A DNA stretch of 64,000 nt from the human T2T-CHM13v2.0 reference genome, Homo sapiens, in assembly GCF_009914755.1 (NCBI RefSeq), contig NC_060925.1, one strand, 5' to 3'. Made by a program: the position numbers and the translations under genes. This document shows positions 10,146 to 56,900 of the stretch, piece after piece; the first letter of the stretch is position 1, and the number at the start of each line of letters is the position of its first letter. The notes beneath the pieces were generated by a model that saw only the letters and a program-made list of their open reading frames with translations, was not told where the DNA came from and made no database searches.

Positions 10146-13121
10146 TCACCACACTGACTTCCACAATGGTTGAACTAGTTTACAGTCCCACCAACAGTAT
10201 AAAAGTGTTCCTATTTCTCCACATCCTCTCCAGCACCTGTTGTTTCCTGACTTTTTAATGATTGCCATTCTACCTGGTGTGAGATGGTATCTCATTGTGG
10301 TTTTGATTTGCATTTCTCTGATGGCCAGTGATGATGAGCATTTTTTCATGTGTTTTTTGGCTGCATAAATGTCTTCTTTTGAGAAGTGTCTGTTCATGTC
10401 CTTCACCCACTTTTTGATGGGGTTGTTTGTTTTTTTCTTGTAAATTTGTTTGAGTTCATTGTAGATTCTGGATATTAGCCCTTTGTCAGATGAGTAGGTT
10501 GTGAAAATTTTCTCCCATTTTGTAGGTTGCCTGTTCACTCTGATGGTAGTTTGCTTTGCTGTGCAGAAGCTCTTTAGTTGAATTAGATCCCATTTGTCAA
10601 TTTTGGCTTTTGTTGCCATTGCTTTTGGTGTTTTAGACATGAAGTCCTTGCCCATGCCTATGTCCTGAATGGTAATGCCTAGGTTTTCTTCTAGGGTTTT
10701 TATGGTTTTAGGTCTAACGTTTAAGTCTTTAATCCATCTTGAATTGATTTTTGTATAAGGTGTAAGGAAGGGATCCAGTTTCAGCTTTCTACATATGGCT
10801 AGCCAGTTTTCCCAGCACCATGTATTAAATAGGGAATCCTTTCCCCATTGCTTGTTTTTCTCAGGTTTGTCAAAGATCAGATAGTTGTAGATATGCGGCA
10901 TTATTTCTGAGGGCTCTGTTCTGTTCCATTGATCTATATCTCTGTTTTGGTACCAGTACCATGCTGTTTTGGTTACTGCAGCCTTGTAGTATAGTTTGAA
11001 GTCAGGTAGTGTGATGCCTCCAGCTTTGTTCTTTTGGCTTAGGATTGCCTTGGCGATGTGGGCTCTTTTTTGGTTCCATATGAACTTTAAAGTAGTTTTT
11101 TCCAATTCTGTGAAGAAAGTCATTGGTAGCTTTATGGGGATGGCATTGAATCTATAAATTACCTTGGGCAGTATGGCCATTTTCACGATATTGATTCTTC
11201 CTACCCATGAGCATGGAATGTTCTTCCATTTGTTTGTATCCTCTTTTATTTCCTTGAGCAGTGGTTTGTAGTTCTCCTTGAAGAGGTCCTTCACATCCCT
11301 TGTAAGTTGGATTCCTAGGTATTTTATTCTCTTTGAAGCAATTGTGAATGGGAGTTCACTCATGATTTGGCTCTCTGTTTGTCTGTTGTTGGTGTATAAG
11401 AATGCTTGTGATTTTTGTACATTGATTTTGTATCCTGAGACTTTGCTGAAGTTGCTTATCAGCTTAAGCAGATTTTGGGCTGAGACAATGGGGTTTTCTA
11501 GATATACAATCATGTCGTCTGCAAACAGGGACAATTTGACTTCCTCTTTTCCTAATTGAATACCCTTTATTTCCTTCTCCTGCCTAATTGCCCTGGCCAG
11601 AACTTCCAACACTATGTTGAATAGGAGTGGTGAGAGAGGGCATCCCTGTCTTGTGCCAGTTTTCAAAGGGAATGCTTCCAGTTTTTGCCCATTCAGTATG
11701 ATATTGGCTGTGGGTTTGTCATAGGTAGCTCTTATTATTTTGAAATACGTCCCATCAATACCTAATTTATTGAGAATTTTTAGCATGAAGGGTTGTTGAA
11801 TTTTGTCAAAGGCTTTTTCTGCATCTATTGAGATAATCATGTGGTTTTTGTCTTTGGCTCTGTTTATATGCTGGATTACATTTATTGATTTGTGTATATT
11901 GAACCAGCCTTGCATCACAGGGATGAAGCCCACTTGATCATGGTGGGTAAGCTTTTTGATGTGCTGCTGGATTCGGTTTGCCAGTATTTTATTGAGGATT
12001 TTTGCATCAATGTTCATCAAGGATATTGGTCTAAAATTCTCTTTTTTGGTTGTGTCTCTGCCCGGCTTTGGTATCAGAATGATGCTGACCTCATAAAATG
12101 AGTTAGGGAGGATTCCCTCTTTTTCTATTGATTGGAATAGTTTCAGAAGGAATGGTACCAGTTCCTCCTTGTACCTCTGGTAGAATTCAGCTGTGAATCC
12201 ATCTGGTCCTGGACTCTTTTTGGTTGGTAAACTATTGATTATTGCCACAATTTCAGCTCCTGTTATTGGTCTATTCAGAGATTCAACTTCTTCCTGGTTT
12301 AGTCTTGGGAGAGTGTATGTTTCGAGGAATTTATCCATTTCTTCTAGATTTTCTAGTTTATTTGCGTAGAGGTGTTTGTAGTATTCTCTGATGGTAGTTT
12401 GTATTTCTGTGGGATCAGTGGTGATATCCCCTTTATCATTTTTTACTGTGTCTATTTGATTCTTCTCTCTTTTTTTCTTTATTAGTCTTGCTAGCGGTCT
12501 ATCAATTTTGTTGATCCTTGCAAAAAACCAGCTCCTGGATTCATTAATTTTTTGAAGGGTTTTTTGTGTCTCTATTTCCTTCAGTTCTGCTCTGATTTTA
12601 GTTATTTCTTGCCTTCTGCTAGCTTTTGAATGTGTTTGCTCTTGCTTTTCTAGTTCTTTTAATTGTGATGTTAGTGTGTCAATTTTGGATCTTTCCTGCT
12701 TTGTCTTGTGGGCATTTAGTGCTATAAATTTCCCTCTACACACTGCTTTGAATGTGTCCCAGAGATTCTGGTATGTTGTGTCTTTGTTCTCGTTAGTTTC
12801 AAAGAACATCTTTATTTCTGCCTTCATTTCGTTATGTATCCAGTAGTCATTCAGGAGCAGGTTGTTCAGTTTCCATGTAGTTGAGCAGTTTTGAGTGAGA
12901 TTCTTAATCCTGAATTCTAGTTTGATTGCACTGTGGTCTGAGAGACAGTTTGTTATAATCTCTGTTCTTTTACATTTGCTGAGGAGTGCTTTACTTCCAA
13001 GTATGTGGTCAATTTTGGAATAGGTGTGGTGTGGTGCTGAAAAAAATGTATATTCTGTTGATTTGGGGTGGAGAGTTCTGTAGATGTCTATTAGGTCCGG
13101 TTGGTGCAGAGCTGAGTTCAA
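10146..13121 (-). pseudogene. L1 ORF2p (endonuclease/reverse transcriptase) remnant, 991-aa open stretch
   Basis: RT motifs [11 protein letters not shown] and LFADD. The stretch is bounded by premature stops at 13155-13157 and 10146-10148. Confidence 0.95.
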
Positions 13122-53900: not shown

Positions 53901-56900
53901 GCAAAAAACCAGCTCCTGGATTCATTAATTTTTTGAAGGGTTTTTTTGTGTCTCTATTTCCTTCAGTTCTGCTCTGATTTTAGTTATTTCTTGCCTTCTG
54001 CTAGCTTTTGAATGTGTTTGCTCTTGCTTTTCTAGTTCTTTTAATTGTGATGTTAGGGTGTCAATTTTGGATCTTTCCTGCTTTGTCTTGTGGGCATTTA
54101 GTGCTATAAATTTCCCTCTACACACTGCTTTGAATGTGTCCCAGAGATTCTGGTATGTTGTGTCTTTGTTCTCGTTAGTTTCAAAGAACATCTTTATTTC
54201 TGCCTTCATTTTGTTATGTACCCAGTAGTTATTCAGGAGCAGGTTGTTCAGTTTCCATGTAGTTGAGCGGTTTTGAGTGAGTTTGTTAGTCCTGAGTTCT
54301 AGTTTGATTGCACTGTGGTCTGAGAGACAGTTTGTTATAATTTCCGTTCTTTTACATTTGCTGAGGAGAGCTTTACTTCCAACTATGTGGTCAATTTTGG
54401 AATAGGTGTGGTGTGTGGTGTGGTGCTGAAAAAAATGTATATTCTGTTGATTTGGGGTGGAGAGTTCTGTAGATGTCTATTAGGTCCACTTGGTGCAGAG
54501 CTGAGTTCAATTCCTGGGTATCCTTGTTAACTTTCTGTCTCGTTGTCGGGTCTAATGTTGACAGTGGGGTGTTAAAGTCTCCCATTATTATTGTGTGGGA
54601 GTCTAAGTCTCTTTGTAGGTCACTAAGGACTTGCTTTATGAGTCTGGGTGCTCCTGTATCAGGTGCATATATATTTAGGATAGTTAGCTCTTCTTGTTGA
54701 ATTGATCCCTTTACCATTATGTAATGGCCTTCTTTGTCTCTTTTGATCTTTGTTGGTTTAAAGTCTGTTTTATCAGAGACTAGGATTGCAACCCCTGCCT
54801 TTTTTTGTTTCCATTTGTTTGGTAGATCTTCCTCCATCCTTTTATTTTGAGCCTATATATGTCTCTGTACGTGAGATTGGTGTCCTGAATACAGCACACT
54901 GATGGGTCTTGACTCTTTATCCAATTTGCCAGTCTGTGTCTTTTAATTGGAGCATTTAGCCCATTTACATTTAAAGTTAACATTGTTATGTGTGAATTTG
55001 ATCCTGTCGTTATGCTGTTAGCTGGTTATTTTGCTCATTAGTTGATGCAGTTTCTTCGTAGCCTCAATGGTCTTTACATTTTGGCATGATTTTGCAGTGG
55101 CTGGTACCGGTTGTTCCTTTCCATGTTTAATGCTTCCTTCAGGAGGTCTTTTAGGGCAGGCCTGGTGGTGACAAAATCTCTCAGCATTTGCTTGTCTGTA
55201 AAGTATTTTATTTCTCCTTCACTTATGAAGATTAGTTTGGCTGGATATGAAATTGTGGGTTGAAAATTCTTTCCTTTAAGAATGTTGAATATTGGCCCCC
55301 AATGTCTTCTGGCTTGTAAAGTTTCTGCCAAGAGATCCCATGTTAGTCTGATGGGCTTCCCTTTGTGGGTAACCCGACCTTTCTCTCTGGCTGCCCTTAA
55401 CATTTTTTCCTTCATTTCAACTTTGGTGAATCTGACAATTATGTTTCTTGGAGTTGCTCTTCTTGGGGAGTATCTTTGTGGCGTTCTCTGTATTTCCTGA
55501 ATCTGAATGTTGGCCTGCCTTGCTAGATTGGGGAAGTTCTCCTGGATAATATCCTGCAGAGTGTTTTCCAACTTGGTTCCATTCTCCCCGTCACTTTCAG
55601 GTACACCAGTCAGACATAGATTTGGTCTTTTCACATAGTCCCATATTTCTTGGAGGCTTTGTTCATTTCTTTTTATTCCTTTTTCTGTAAACTTCCCTTC
55701 TCACTTCATTTCATTCATTTCATCTTCCATCACTGATACCCTTTCTTCCAGTTGATTGCATCGGCTCTTGAGGCTTCTGCATTCTTCACGTAGTTCTCGA
55801 GCCTTGGCTTTCAGCTCCATCAGCTCCTTTAAGGACTTCTCTGTATTGGTTATTCTAGTTATACATTCATCTAAATTTTTTTCAAAATTTTTAACTTCTT
55901 TGCCTTTGGTTTGAATTTCCTCCTGTCGTTCGGAGTAGTTTGATCATCTGAAGCCTTCTTCTCTCAACTCATCAAAGTCATACGCCGTCCAGCTTTGTTC
56001 CATTGCTGGTGAGGAACTGCATTCCTTTGGAGGAGGAGAGGCGCTCTGCTTTTTAGAGGTTCCAGTTTTTCTGCTCTGTTTTTTCCCCATCTTTGTGGTT
56101 TTATCTACTTTTGGTCTTTGATGATGGTGATGTACAGATGGGTTTTTGCTGTGGATATTTTTTCTCTTTGTTTTCCTTCTACCAGACAGGACCCTCAGCT
56201 GCAGGTCTGTTGGAGTTTGCTAGAGGTCCACACGAGACCCTGTTTGCCTGGGTATCAGCAGCGGTGGCTGCACAACAGCGGATTTTCGTGAACCGTGAAT
56301 GCTGCTGTCTGATCGTTCCTCTGGAAGTTTTGTCTCAGAGGAGTACCCGGCCGTGTGAGGTGTCAGTCTGCCCCTACTGTGGGGTGCCTCCCAGTTAGGC
56401 TGCTCGGGGGTCAGGAGTCAGGGACCCACTTGAGGAGGCAGTCTGCCCGTTCTCAGATCTCCAGCTGCGTGCTGGGAGAACCACTGCTCTCTTCAAAGCT
56501 GTCAGACAGGGACGTTTAAGTCTGCAGAGGTTACTGCTGTCTTTTTGTTTGTCTGTGCACTGCCCCCAGCGGTGGAGCCTACAGAGGCAGGCACGCCTCC
56601 TTGAGCTGTGGTGGGCTCCACTCAGTTTGAGCTTCATGGCTGCTTTGTTTACTTAAGCAAGCCTGGGCAATGGTGGGCGCCCCTCCCCCAGCGTTGCTGC
56701 CGCCTTGCAGTTTGATCTCAGACTGCTGTGCTAGCAATCAGCGAGACTCCGTGGGCGTAGGACCCTCCGAGCCATGTGCGGGATGTAATCTCCTGGTGCG
56801 CCATTTTTTAAGCCCATTGGAAAAGAGCAGTATTAGGGTGGGAGTGACCCGATTTTCCAGGTGCCGTCTGTCACCCCTTTCTTTGACTAGGAAAGGGAAC

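What the first reader, a model, noticed from the sequence alone, without database searches (positions are those of the whole stretch)
11041..55240. Three-way mosaic: L1 #3 alternates between #1-type and #2-type variants over tens of bases
Seen: #1 and #3 (not #2) share gatccttGcaaa (12520/53901), ctttGtcttg (AHKTK), gatgctgAcc (YEVSI), gaagAttag (AKLIF) and ggattgCctt (AKAIL). In #3 these are interleaved with #2-type sites (53901 #1-type, 53941 #2-type, 54085 #1-type, ~54285 #2-type). #1 and #2 share tttctaAttctag and YWIHN. All three share catttgTttgg (IYQTN). The elements differ in age by their 5' UTR, so this suggests repeated short-tract conversion across >40 kb, i.e. local concerted evolution.
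Basis: partly seen in the sequence, partly recalled or inferred. Interest (0 to 1): 0.7.

Follow-up and report, generated by a model that had tools for sequence, protein, structure and literature searches.

The report
Gene conversion patches between neighbouring L1s
Three old L1 retrotransposon copies lying within 47 kb in an intron of LRRC7 have copied patches of a few hundred bases from one another, a known by-product of DNA repair, rather than swapping variants every few tens of bases.

Summary
The window holds three full-length, minus-strand L1PA copies. Each has its own target-site duplication, and they belong to three successive subfamily grades. Most of the "mosaic" is background: any three copies give three site patterns, and #1-#3 rare-allele sharing over the element falls within the range of unlinked pairs (17 of 465 pairs reach it).

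One segment is different, #3 53500-54966 in the 5' third of ORF2.
- #2 and #3 differ by 1 substitution in 619 aligned bases at 54231-54856, where 30 are expected. The next-lowest value among 465 pairs is 7. They share 8 alleles that are rare in 28 unlinked copies and that no other scored genome copy combines.
- Next to it, #1 and #3 differ by 1 substitution in 356 bases (53856-54211) and share 3 rare alleles.
- A third short patch (53500-53650) joins #2 and #3 and carries young-type diagnostic alleles into the older #2.

Outside this segment the copies are not unusually close.

Best reading: two or three non-allelic gene-conversion events of about 150-630 bp, with #3 taking part in all of them. 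This is a known process and a new instance of it. Donor/acceptor direction, timing and population status remain open.

The parts
9575..15608 (-). L1 #1: full-length L1PA copy of the youngest grade, lacking about 126 bases of the 5' UTR. It is flanked by a 13-base target-site duplication, GAGGACATTTTTC, at 9562-9574 and 15609-15621.
   Evidence: Searches give the ends and the duplication. Searches place it with L034, L040 and L041. Searches show a 991-aa open frame at 10146-13121 with RVT_1 at residues 350-606.
32227..38315 (-). L1 #2: full-length L1PA copy of the oldest grade of the three. It is flanked by a 15-base target-site duplication, TGTTGTAAGTTCTTT, at 32212-32226 and 38316-38330.
   Evidence: Searches give the duplication. 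One search places it weakly with L031 and L035, outside the 100/100 clade that holds #3 and #1.
50949..57124 (-). L1 #3: full-length L1PA copy of intermediate grade. It is flanked by a 12-base target-site duplication, GAAATACT[A/G]TTC, at 50937-50948 and 57125-57136. It takes part in all three tracts.
   Evidence: Searches give the duplication. Searches give its place in the tree.
54231..54856 (.). Tract C in #3 (robust). It matches #2 35505-36123 with 1 substitution in 619 aligned bases (54661, at a CpG) plus a 7-base tandem duplication in #3 at 54406-54412. The shared rare markers span 54285-54660. The tract may extend left to 54086.
   Evidence: for the tract statistics. for the genome searches.
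35505..36123 (.). Tract C in #2, the partner of #3 54231-54856. #2 has 0 of its 99 private substitutions in this stretch.
53856..54211 (.). Tract B in #3 (probable). It matches #1 12475-12829 with 1 substitution (54057, private to #1) and a T-run length difference at 53941. The two copies share the rare alleles 53901-G, 54085-G and 54177-A.
12475..12829 (.). Tract B in #1, the partner of #3 53856-54211.
53500..53650 (.). Tract A in #3 (probable). It is identical to #2 34773-34923 over 151 bases. It holds two shared rare alleles (53556-G, 53641-G) and two diagnostic sites (53544, 53598) at which #2 carries the young-type allele.
34773..34923 (.). Tract A in #2, the partner of #3 53500-53650.
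54857..54882 (.). A cluster of 5 substitutions private to #3 within 26 bases, directly at the right edge of tract C.

Best explanation
Three independently inserted, same-orientation L1PA copies of successive subfamily grades lie 22.7 kb and 18.7 kb apart in an LRRC7 intron. They have exchanged sequence by non-allelic (interlocus) gene conversion in one segment of ORF2, about 2.3-3.6 kb from the 5' end of #3 and upstream of the reverse-transcriptase domain.

Shown directly:
- one tract of 376-626 bases between #2 and #3, possibly extending to about 770 bases;
- no change to the flanks, the target-site duplications or the spacing between copies, which means a non-crossover outcome.

Probable:
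- a 356-base tract between #1 and #3 directly beside the first tract;
- a patch of 98-151 bases between #2 and #3, 200 bases further on.

Inferred mechanism: a break in one copy was repaired by copying from a neighbouring copy (strand invasion and synthesis-dependent annealing), on at least two occasions.

Direction: #3 to #2 is favoured for the short patch, weakly favoured for the main tract, and unresolved for #1-#3.

Timing: the main tract has 1 difference in 619 bases, against 4.85% between the two copies overall. It is therefore recent, roughly the last 1 million years, with an upper bound of several million years. This uses mutation rates recalled from memory, not taken from any call.

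For: Independent insertions. Each copy has its own target-site duplication, and the flanks do not align.

Main tract.
- A run of 24 consecutive sites where #2=#3 and #1 differs.
- 1 difference in 619 bases where 30 are expected, Poisson 2.9e-12.
- The lowest difference count in any 600-column window is 1; the next-lowest among 465 pairs is 7 and the median is 15.
- A scan corrected for per-site rate ranks the pair 1 of 300 at 1.2e-7 and 1 of 105 among full-length copies.
- 0 of #2's 99 private substitutions and 1 of #3's 87 fall inside the tract.
- 8 shared alleles in the tract are carried by 0-2 of 28 unlinked copies.
- For #3 54500-54660, #2 scores 100% and the next of 40 scored genome hits scores 97%. 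For 54300-54800, #2 scores 870 bits and the next hit 820 bits.

Incongruence with the rest of the element. Outside the tract the siblings are not in each other's top 40 hits, and a 100/100 branch separates #2 from #3.

#1-#3 tract.
- 1 substitution in 356 bases where 13.4-13.9 are expected. This is the lowest of 465 pairs for that region; the next is 4.
- Scan rank 3 of 300 and 2 of 105.
- 3 shared rare alleles lie in that window, whereas 22 of the other 23 top-25 windows have none.
- #1 is the best genome-wide hit to this stretch of #3, and #2 is third.

Short patch (53500-53650).
- 151 identical bases with four concordant markers. Two of them are sites where 13 of 14 older-grade copies carry the other allele.
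- Rank 2 of 300 once the main segment is masked.

Three-way signal. The only two rare alleles shared by all three copies (54177, 54818) both lie in this segment, and 0 of 120 control triples reach 2.

No hidden sub-lineage. Twelve unlinked carriers of 52812-A or 53209-G carry none of the other #2/#3 shared alleles.
Against: - One unlinked pair (L037-L027) has a window as low in divergence as the #1-#3 window: 1.37e-5 against 1.41e-5.
- An unlinked chr17 copy is nearly as close to #3 53856-54211 as #1 is: 621 against 630 bits.
- 54085-G occurs in at least 14 other copies, so it may be a minor-lineage marker rather than a private mutation.
- The short patch ranks only 10 of 105 in the set of full-length copies.
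- Several sites do not fit a simple story: 53941 (T-run, #3 = #2 inside the #1-#3 tract), 54221 (#1 and #2 share a rare T that #3 lacks) and 54960 (all three carry the old-type allele).
- The panel has only 28 copies, chosen as the best hits to #3 54300-54800. A larger, unbiased panel could not be fetched.
- The genome search scores only the 40 best candidates per query, so 'no other copy' is a lower-bound statement.
- No other assembly or species was available, so the pre-conversion state was never observed.
Confidence: 0.8

Rival explanations
1. There was only one conversion event, the #2-#3 main tract. The #1-#3 window and the 151-base #2-#3 patch are chance stretches with few mutations plus parallel or minor-lineage variants.
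For: - L037-L027, an unlinked pair, reaches the same scan P as #1-#3.
- An unlinked chr17 copy scores within 9 bits of #1.
- 54085-G is present in at least 14 other copies.
- The longest run of #3-to-#1 markers is 3, permutation P 0.074.
- The short patch ranks 10 of 105 in the full-length set.
Against: - The #1-#3 window combines low divergence with 3 shared rare alleles. Among the other 23 top-25 windows, 22 have none and one has 2.
- Both window siblings are among the top 3 genome hits to #3 53856-54211.
- The 61-mer with 53901-G occurs in only three places in the genome, all within 215 kb.
- The short patch has four concordant markers, including two diagnostic sites.
- Outside the tract, #2-#3 share 6 alleles carried by exactly two of the 31 copies, where 0.35 are expected.
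Confidence: 0.22
2. There was one complex repair event in #3. A break in #3 was repaired by synthesis that switched template from #1 to #2, which produced the two adjacent tracts B and C at once.
For: - Tracts B and C abut within 20 bases in #3 (54211 and 54231).
- All differences inside or at the edges of tract C are private to #3: 54230, the 7-base tandem duplication, 54661 and the 5-site cluster at 54857-54882. #2 has none between 54086 and 54966.
- Error-prone, slippage-prone repair synthesis would fit this pattern. That property is recalled knowledge, not taken from a call.
Against: - Inside tract C, #2 carries the young-type alleles at 54369 and 54840, which favours #3 as donor by about 10:1. 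Neither site is cleanly diagnostic.
- The rare allele 54177-A is shared by all three copies, which a pure acceptor role for #3 does not explain.
- The short patch points from #3 to #2.
Confidence: 0.15
3. No conversion took place. The pattern is L1PA subfamily succession plus CpG decay and parallel mutation, and #3 simply sits between #2 and #1 in age.
For: - The tree is a ladder with #2 older than #3 and #3 older than #1.
- 148 of the 428 two-state variable sites are polymorphic in the panel, and 79 of those are CpG transitions.
- #1-#3 sharing over the whole element is within the unlinked range.
- Single 'rare' alleles such as 52812-A and 53209-G recur at least 34 and at least 38 times in the genome.
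Against: This cannot produce 619 bases with 1 difference between copies that are 4.85% apart and each carry 1.5-1.8% private changes. It also cannot produce 8 shared alleles that no other scored genome copy combines.
Confidence: 0.03
4. The identical stretches are an assembly or polishing artefact, created by reads placed on the wrong L1 copy.
For: None from the calls. It is listed because only one assembly was examined.
Against: - The copies are about 95% identical, 18.7-41 kb apart, and have unique flanks.
- The tract carries its own later changes, a CpG transition and a 7-base duplication in #3 only.
- That long accurate reads resolve such copies is general knowledge and was not tested here.
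Confidence: 0.03

Closest known systems
Non-allelic gene conversion between dispersed retrotransposon copies. It is best documented for Alu (Kass 1995, Roy 2000, Aleshin and Zhi 2010), as summarised in passages I read of Fawcett and Innan 2019, PMC6598467.
   Same: [quoted passage not shown]
- Divergence between neighbouring copies is locally reduced.
- The rate depends on distance and identity.
- The sequence tree and the real history of the copies disagree.
   Different: - Here the elements are 6-kb L1 copies, not 300-base Alu elements.
- The tracts cover only part of each element.
- The partners are 18.7 kb and 41 kb apart, beyond the <10 kb range that the review quotes for elevated Alu conversion.
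Gene conversion involving L1 itself. Examples are repair of a break in a chromosomal LINE by endogenous LINEs in mouse cells (Tremblay 2000) and an intra-chromosomal conversion inside a human L1 (Sen et al. 2007, PMC1920257, passages read). [quoted passage not shown]
   Same: An L1 copy acts as the template for repairing another L1 on the same chromosome. Tracts run from tens to hundreds of bases.
   Different: Those are experimental or single-locus reports. Here three germline-fixed copies (in this assembly) share one affected segment. A phrase search for L1 gene conversion found only that one reference entry, so open-access literature specific to L1 is thin.
Interlocus gene conversion in segmental duplications and gene duplicates. 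Sources are Harpak et al., preprint 10.1101/135152 (abstract read), and Vollger et al. 2023, PMC10172114 (passages read).
   Same: - Tract sizes fit: Harpak et al. give a mean of 250 bases.
- GC bias fits: among alleles shared by #2 and #3, 12 of 22 are W>S and 3 of 22 are S>W. Among private changes the figures are 63 and 79 of 186. Fisher P is 0.064 for W>S and 0.010 for S>W.
- Donor and acceptor lie on the same chromosome.
   Different: - Hotspots in duplications favour about 99.4% identity, and conversion slows as copies diverge. These L1 copies are only about 95% identical.
- They arose by separate insertions, not by duplication.
Ordinary L1PA subfamily succession, with the 129-base 5' UTR deletion in L1PA3. 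The source is passages read of preprint 10.1101/429613.
   Same: This explains most three-way site patterns and the 5' UTR difference: #1 lacks about 126 bases that #2 and #3 keep.
   Different: It does not explain near-identity restricted to a 1.5-kb segment, or rare alleles shared there.

Membership tests
Non-allelic (interlocus) gene conversion, non-crossover | The partners are separate loci of independent origin. | tested here: met
   There are three different target-site duplications, and the flanks are non-homologous.
Non-allelic (interlocus) gene conversion, non-crossover | A bounded tract of near-identity lies inside normally diverged sequence, beyond what chance gives. | tested here: met
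   #2-#3 differ at 1 of 619 bases where 30 are expected. The pair is the lowest of 465 pairs and ranks 1 of 300 in the scan. #1-#3 differ at 1 of 356 bases and rank 3 of 300.
Non-allelic (interlocus) gene conversion, non-crossover | Derived variants private to the pair are shared inside the tract. | tested here: met
   #2-#3 share 8 alleles carried by 0-2 of 28 panel copies, and no scored genome copy combines them. #1-#3 share 3 such alleles. One of those three, 54085-G, also occurs elsewhere.
Non-allelic (interlocus) gene conversion, non-crossover | The tract and the rest of the element give conflicting phylogenies. | tested here: met
   Inside the tract the nearest sequence is the sibling: 1 of 619 against 14-15 of 619 for the nearest panel copies. 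Outside it, #2 and #3 are separated by a 100/100 branch.
Non-allelic (interlocus) gene conversion, non-crossover | No deletion, duplication or inversion occurred between the partners. | tested here: met
   All three copies are full length, in the same orientation, with intact duplications and distinct intervening sequence.
Non-allelic (interlocus) gene conversion, non-crossover | The unconverted state is seen at the orthologous locus in an outgroup or another haplotype. | not testable with these tools
   Only this one human assembly could be searched.
Concerted evolution of a local repeat cluster | The copies are more alike to each other than to other family members along most of their length. 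| tested here: not met
   Outside 53500-54966 the siblings are absent from each other's top 40 genome hits. They rank 2-20 among 30 neighbours by distance and fall in different grades of the tree.
Shared L1 sub-lineage (sister insertions from one source) | The shared rare alleles occur together in other genomic copies. | tested here: not met
   Twelve carriers of 52812-A or 53209-G carry none of the other shared alleles. No scored copy combines the tract alleles. Only 40 candidates are scored per search.
Segmental duplication of one L1 | Homology extends into the flanks, and the target-site duplication is shared. | tested here: not met
   Flank identity is about 40-45%, and the duplications differ.
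PRDM9-motif recombination hotspot | The 13-mer CCNCCNTNNCCNC (motif recalled from memory) occurs in or beside the tracts. | tested here: not met
   There are 3 matches in the window, at 7141, 18459 and 57796, and none inside the L1 copies. Absence of the motif does not exclude a hotspot, and no recombination map was available.

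The most novel reading that the evidence does not exclude
The segment of ORF2 about 2.3-3.6 kb from the 5' end acts as a recurrent site of ectopic repair that links a local cluster of L1 copies which are only about 95% identical. The links span 19-41 kb and possibly reach a truncated, inverted L1 173 kb away. That fragment is the only other place in the genome with the exact 61-mer carrying 53901-G. The events are recent enough (1 difference per 356-619 bases) to be specific to the human or African-ape lineage and perhaps still segregating. 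If this holds generally, intronic L1 clusters undergo measurable local homogenisation at identities well below those of known conversion hotspots. That would bias L1 age estimates and subfamily calls, and it would mark sites of recurrent breakage.
Probability: 0.2. Interest if true: 0.55.

Novelty: new member of a known kind. Interest (0 to 1): 0.3.

Why it matters
The finding has modest importance.
- It is a clean example, resolved in a complete assembly, of conversion between interspersed L1 copies that are only about 95% alike and tens of kilobases apart. Most open-access evidence concerns Alu elements or near-identical duplications.
- Patches like these distort divergence-based dating and subfamily assignment of individual L1 copies.
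- They can move variants between copies.
- They mark places where breaks were repaired ectopically inside a gene (LRRC7). The same process, when resolved as a crossover, would delete 19-41 kb of intron.

There is also a methodological lesson. A three-way "mosaic" of single sites is uninformative on its own. The real signal is run length combined with the rarity of shared alleles, measured against unlinked copies.

Tried and rejected
1. Hidden sub-lineage as the source of the 14 rare alleles that #2 and #3 share outside the tract. The 65-mer and 72-mer around 52812-A and 53209-G have at least 34 and at least 38 other exact copies. However, 12 fetched carriers hold only the allele they were chosen for. 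The explanation is rejected. Those alleles are recurrent single hits, so exact k-mer counts do not measure lineage.

2. Using panel rarity alone. The panel was chosen by similarity to the tract and is small, so results were re-based on pair-versus-pair controls.

3. Direction of transfer. Diagnostic sites favour #3 to #2. The private changes in and around tract C, however, all lie in #3. The main tract is left unresolved.

4. Run-length test for isolated shared sites. P was 0.010 for #2-#3, 0.036 for #1-#3 and 0.30 for #1-#2. This is suggestive only and is not used as proof of further short tracts.

5. PRDM9 motif. None lies inside the L1 copies.

6. Larger control panel. Smaller requests were used instead.

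8. Literature. Phrase searches for L1-specific gene conversion returned one paper, and only in its reference list. Two recent pangenome preprints mention conversion only in passing. No supplements were opened.

Full report
**Anatomy**

The window (chr1:69,750,001-69,814,000 of the complete human assembly, an intron of LRRC7) holds three full-length L1 copies on the minus strand. Their poly-A ends are at the low coordinates.
- #1 spans 9575-15608.
- #2 spans 32227-38315.
- #3 spans 50949-57124.

Each copy has its own target-site duplication, of 13, 15 and 12 bases. The flanks do not align, so these are three separate insertions, spaced 22.7 kb and 18.7 kb apart in the same orientation. Pairwise identity is about 95%.

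#1 lacks about 126 bases of 5' UTR that the other two keep. This matches the 129-base L1PA3 deletion described in passages of preprint 10.1101/429613. #1 keeps a 991-aa open frame with a reverse-transcriptase domain. The other two copies are more broken.

I aligned the three copies and then added 28 unlinked L1 copies from the same genome. These 28 were the best hits to #3 54300-54800; 20 were fetched at about 6.3 kb and 8 at 3.5 kb.

I counted panel alleles only at columns where the three copies differ. The five #1=#3 alleles are carried by 0-1 of 20-28 panel copies. So are three #1=#2 alleles and 22 #2=#3 alleles.

**Why most of the mosaic is background**

Three sequences can only show three two-state patterns. 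Here they number 153, 154 and 121 sites, plus 8 three-state sites. Of the 428 two-state sites, 148 are polymorphic in the panel, and 79 of those are CpG transitions.

Maximum-likelihood trees built without the tract give the usual L1PA ladder. #2 sits in an older grade, #3 in the next and #1 in the youngest. A 100/100 branch separates #2 from #3 plus #1. An element of intermediate age must look #1-like at some sites and #2-like at others.

Outside the main tract, #1-#3 share 4 rare alleles in 2.7 kb. Of 465 pairs, 17 reach that count. #1 shares 5-6 rare alleles with the unlinked copy L040 and 6 with L041. The 61-mers carrying 54085-G and 55231-A have 14 and 6 other exact copies in the genome.

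**The main tract**

The site string contains a run of 24 consecutive positions where #2=#3 and #1 differs. From #3 54231 to 54856 (#2 35505-36123), the two copies differ by two changes:
- one CpG substitution (54661);
- a 7-base tandem duplication in #3.

That is 1 difference in 619 bases where 30 are expected, Poisson 2.9e-12. Further support:
- The three longest identical runs of the pair are adjacent: 175, 254 and 196 bases.
- Over all 465 pairs, the lowest difference count in any 600-column window is 1 for #2-#3. The next-lowest is 7 and the median is 15. This holds although the panel was selected to be clean in exactly this region.
- A scan over window sizes of 100-1000 columns, scaled by per-column panel diversity, ranks #2-#3 first of 300 at 1.2e-7 and first of 105 full-length pairs.
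- None of #2's 99 private substitutions and one of #3's 87 fall in the tract. #1 has 8 of its 64 there.
- The tract carries 8 shared alleles present in 0-2 of 28 panel copies.
- In genome searches #2 is the top hit to #3. It scores 870 against 820 bits for 501 bases and 100% against 97% for 161 bases. Only 40 candidates are scored per search.
- Outside the tract the siblings are not among each other's top 40 hits.

**Two further patches**

*Tract B, #1-#3.* From #3 53856 to 54211 (#1 12475-12829), the two copies differ by one substitution and a T-run length.
- This is the lowest of 465 pairs for that region; the next is 4 and the median is 14. The expected count is 13.4.
- The window ranks 3 of 300 in the scan, level with one unlinked pair.
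- It holds three shared rare alleles: 53901-G, 54085-G and 54177-A. Among the other 23 top-25 windows, 22 hold none and one holds two.
- #1 is the best genome-wide hit to this stretch at 630 bits. An unlinked chr17 copy scores 621 and #2 scores 620.

*Tract A, #2-#3.* #2 and #3 are identical over 53500-53650.
- The patch has two shared rare alleles.
- It also has two diagnostic sites at which 13 of 14 older-grade copies carry the other allele, yet #2 carries the young-type one.
- With 53856-54966 masked, it ranks 2 of 300, but only 10 of 105 in the full-length set.

*Other signals.*
- Marker strings give longest runs of 9 (P 0.0002) and 10 (0 of 5000 permutations) for #2/#3, and a longest run of 3 for #3 to #1 (P 0.074).
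- The only two rare alleles shared by all three copies (54177, 54818) lie in this same segment. None of 120 control triples reaches two.
- Outside the tract, #2-#3 still share 6 alleles carried by exactly two of the 31 copies, where 0.35 are expected. The maximum among the other cross-clade pairs is 3.
- Those isolated sites sit in somewhat longer identical runs than random positions, P 0.010. I regard this as suggestive only.

**Is it a hidden sub-lineage?**

Two of the outside-tract shared alleles recur in at least 34 and at least 38 other copies. Twelve such carriers were fetched. Each has only the allele it was chosen for and none of the other shared alleles. So these are recurrent hits, not a lineage. 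No scored genome copy combines the alleles of the tract or of the short patch.

**Mechanism**

The flanks, duplications, orientation and spacing are intact. The exchange was therefore non-reciprocal copying without crossover, which is non-allelic gene conversion.

Tract sizes fit published estimates; Harpak et al. give a mean of 250 bases (abstract).

The spectrum of #2-#3 shared rare alleles leans towards G/C. W>S changes are 12 of 22 against 63 of 186 among private changes (P 0.064). S>W changes are 3 of 22 against 79 of 186 (P 0.010). This agrees with the GC bias reported for such events.

Direction of transfer:
- The short patch points from #3 to #2.
- The main tract is weakly #3-like at 54369 and 54840.
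- Yet all later or edge changes lie in #3: 54230, the 7-base duplication, 54661 and five substitutions in 26 bases at 54857-54882. This would suit #3 as the repaired copy.
- I leave the direction of the main tract open.

A sequence of #1 to #3, then #3 to #2 over 54086-54856, would explain the three-way allele 54177-A. It needs extra changes at 54221 and 54230.

**Timing (inference)**

One difference in 619 bases is about one thirtieth of the 4.85% between the two copies. With recalled rates of 0.5-1e-9 per base per year, this gives roughly 1 million years, with an upper bound of several million.

**Comparison with what is known**

Conversion between dispersed repeats is established for Alu and depends on distance and identity (PMC6598467, passages). 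L1 copies are known to serve as repair templates, and an intra-chromosomal L1 conversion has been described (PMC1920257, passages). Interlocus conversion is mapped genome-wide in duplications, where hotspots favour about 99.4% identity (PMC10172114, passages).

This locus is a new instance at lower identity and longer distance. It is not a new kind of process.

**Limits**

- Only one assembly was examined, with no outgroup.
- The control panel is small and was chosen by similarity.
- The genome search is heuristic and capped at 40 scored candidates per query.
- Several sites (53941, 54221, 54960) do not fit any simple history.

Noticed in passing
L051 = G000:C1:69973800-69980050 (about 173 kb beyond #3); compare window 12520 / 53901: The exact 61-mer carrying the rare G at 53901 occurs in only three places in the genome: #1, #3 and this truncated, 5'-inverted L1 fragment on the opposite strand. 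All 22 candidates were scored. The fragment is of #1's grade. It also shares #1's otherwise rare 10273-C and 12078-A, but not 54085-G or 54177-A. It could be local exchange over 170-215 kb or a coincidence.
   Followed up: partly
window 54857-54882: Five substitutions private to #3 lie within 26 bases, exactly at the right edge of the #2=#3 tract. About 0.5 would be expected at #3's private density. They could be a scar of error-prone repair synthesis or a micro-patch copied from a diverged copy.
   Followed up: partly
window 54406-54412: A 7-base tandem duplication (GTGTGGT) private to #3 lies inside the tract. It is absent from #1, #2 and the panel.
   Followed up: yes
window 13572 / 36227 / 54960: At a clean old/young diagnostic site all three window copies carry the old-type C. 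Older-grade copies read C in 11 of 12 cases and younger-grade copies read T in 14 of 14. #1 and #3 belong to younger grades, and all three are identical over 54883-54966.
   Followed up: partly
loci L039 (C11:76857633-76863976) and L048 (C11:77258145-77264488): Among the 'unlinked' control pairs, the only two copies that lie within 1 Mb of each other (400 kb apart) tie for the highest excess of alleles carried by just those two copies. They share 3 where 0.17 are expected; three of 433 other pairs reach 3. They have no long identical run. This hints that local sharing may be general.
   Followed up: partly
window 42889-44400: A dense block of short tandem units spaced 9, 11 and 31 bases apart (96 overlapping 300-base copies). 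It also folds back on itself, with arms of about 600 bases that are 74% complementary. It lies between #2 and #3.
   Followed up: no
window 32150-32226 and 38316-38450; also 30498-31047: #2 appears to be inserted into an older, plus-strand L1 remnant. Its flanks read like the L1 3' region, which is a resemblance judged by eye. A separate 550-base L1 piece at 30498-31047 matches #1 12174-12727 on the opposite strand at 88.8%.
   Followed up: no
window 54660-54661: A two-step change is visible. The panel and #1 read TG, #2 reads CG and #3 reads CA. A shared T>C created a CpG that then decayed in #3 only. This is the single substitution separating #2 and #3 in the tract.
   Followed up: yes
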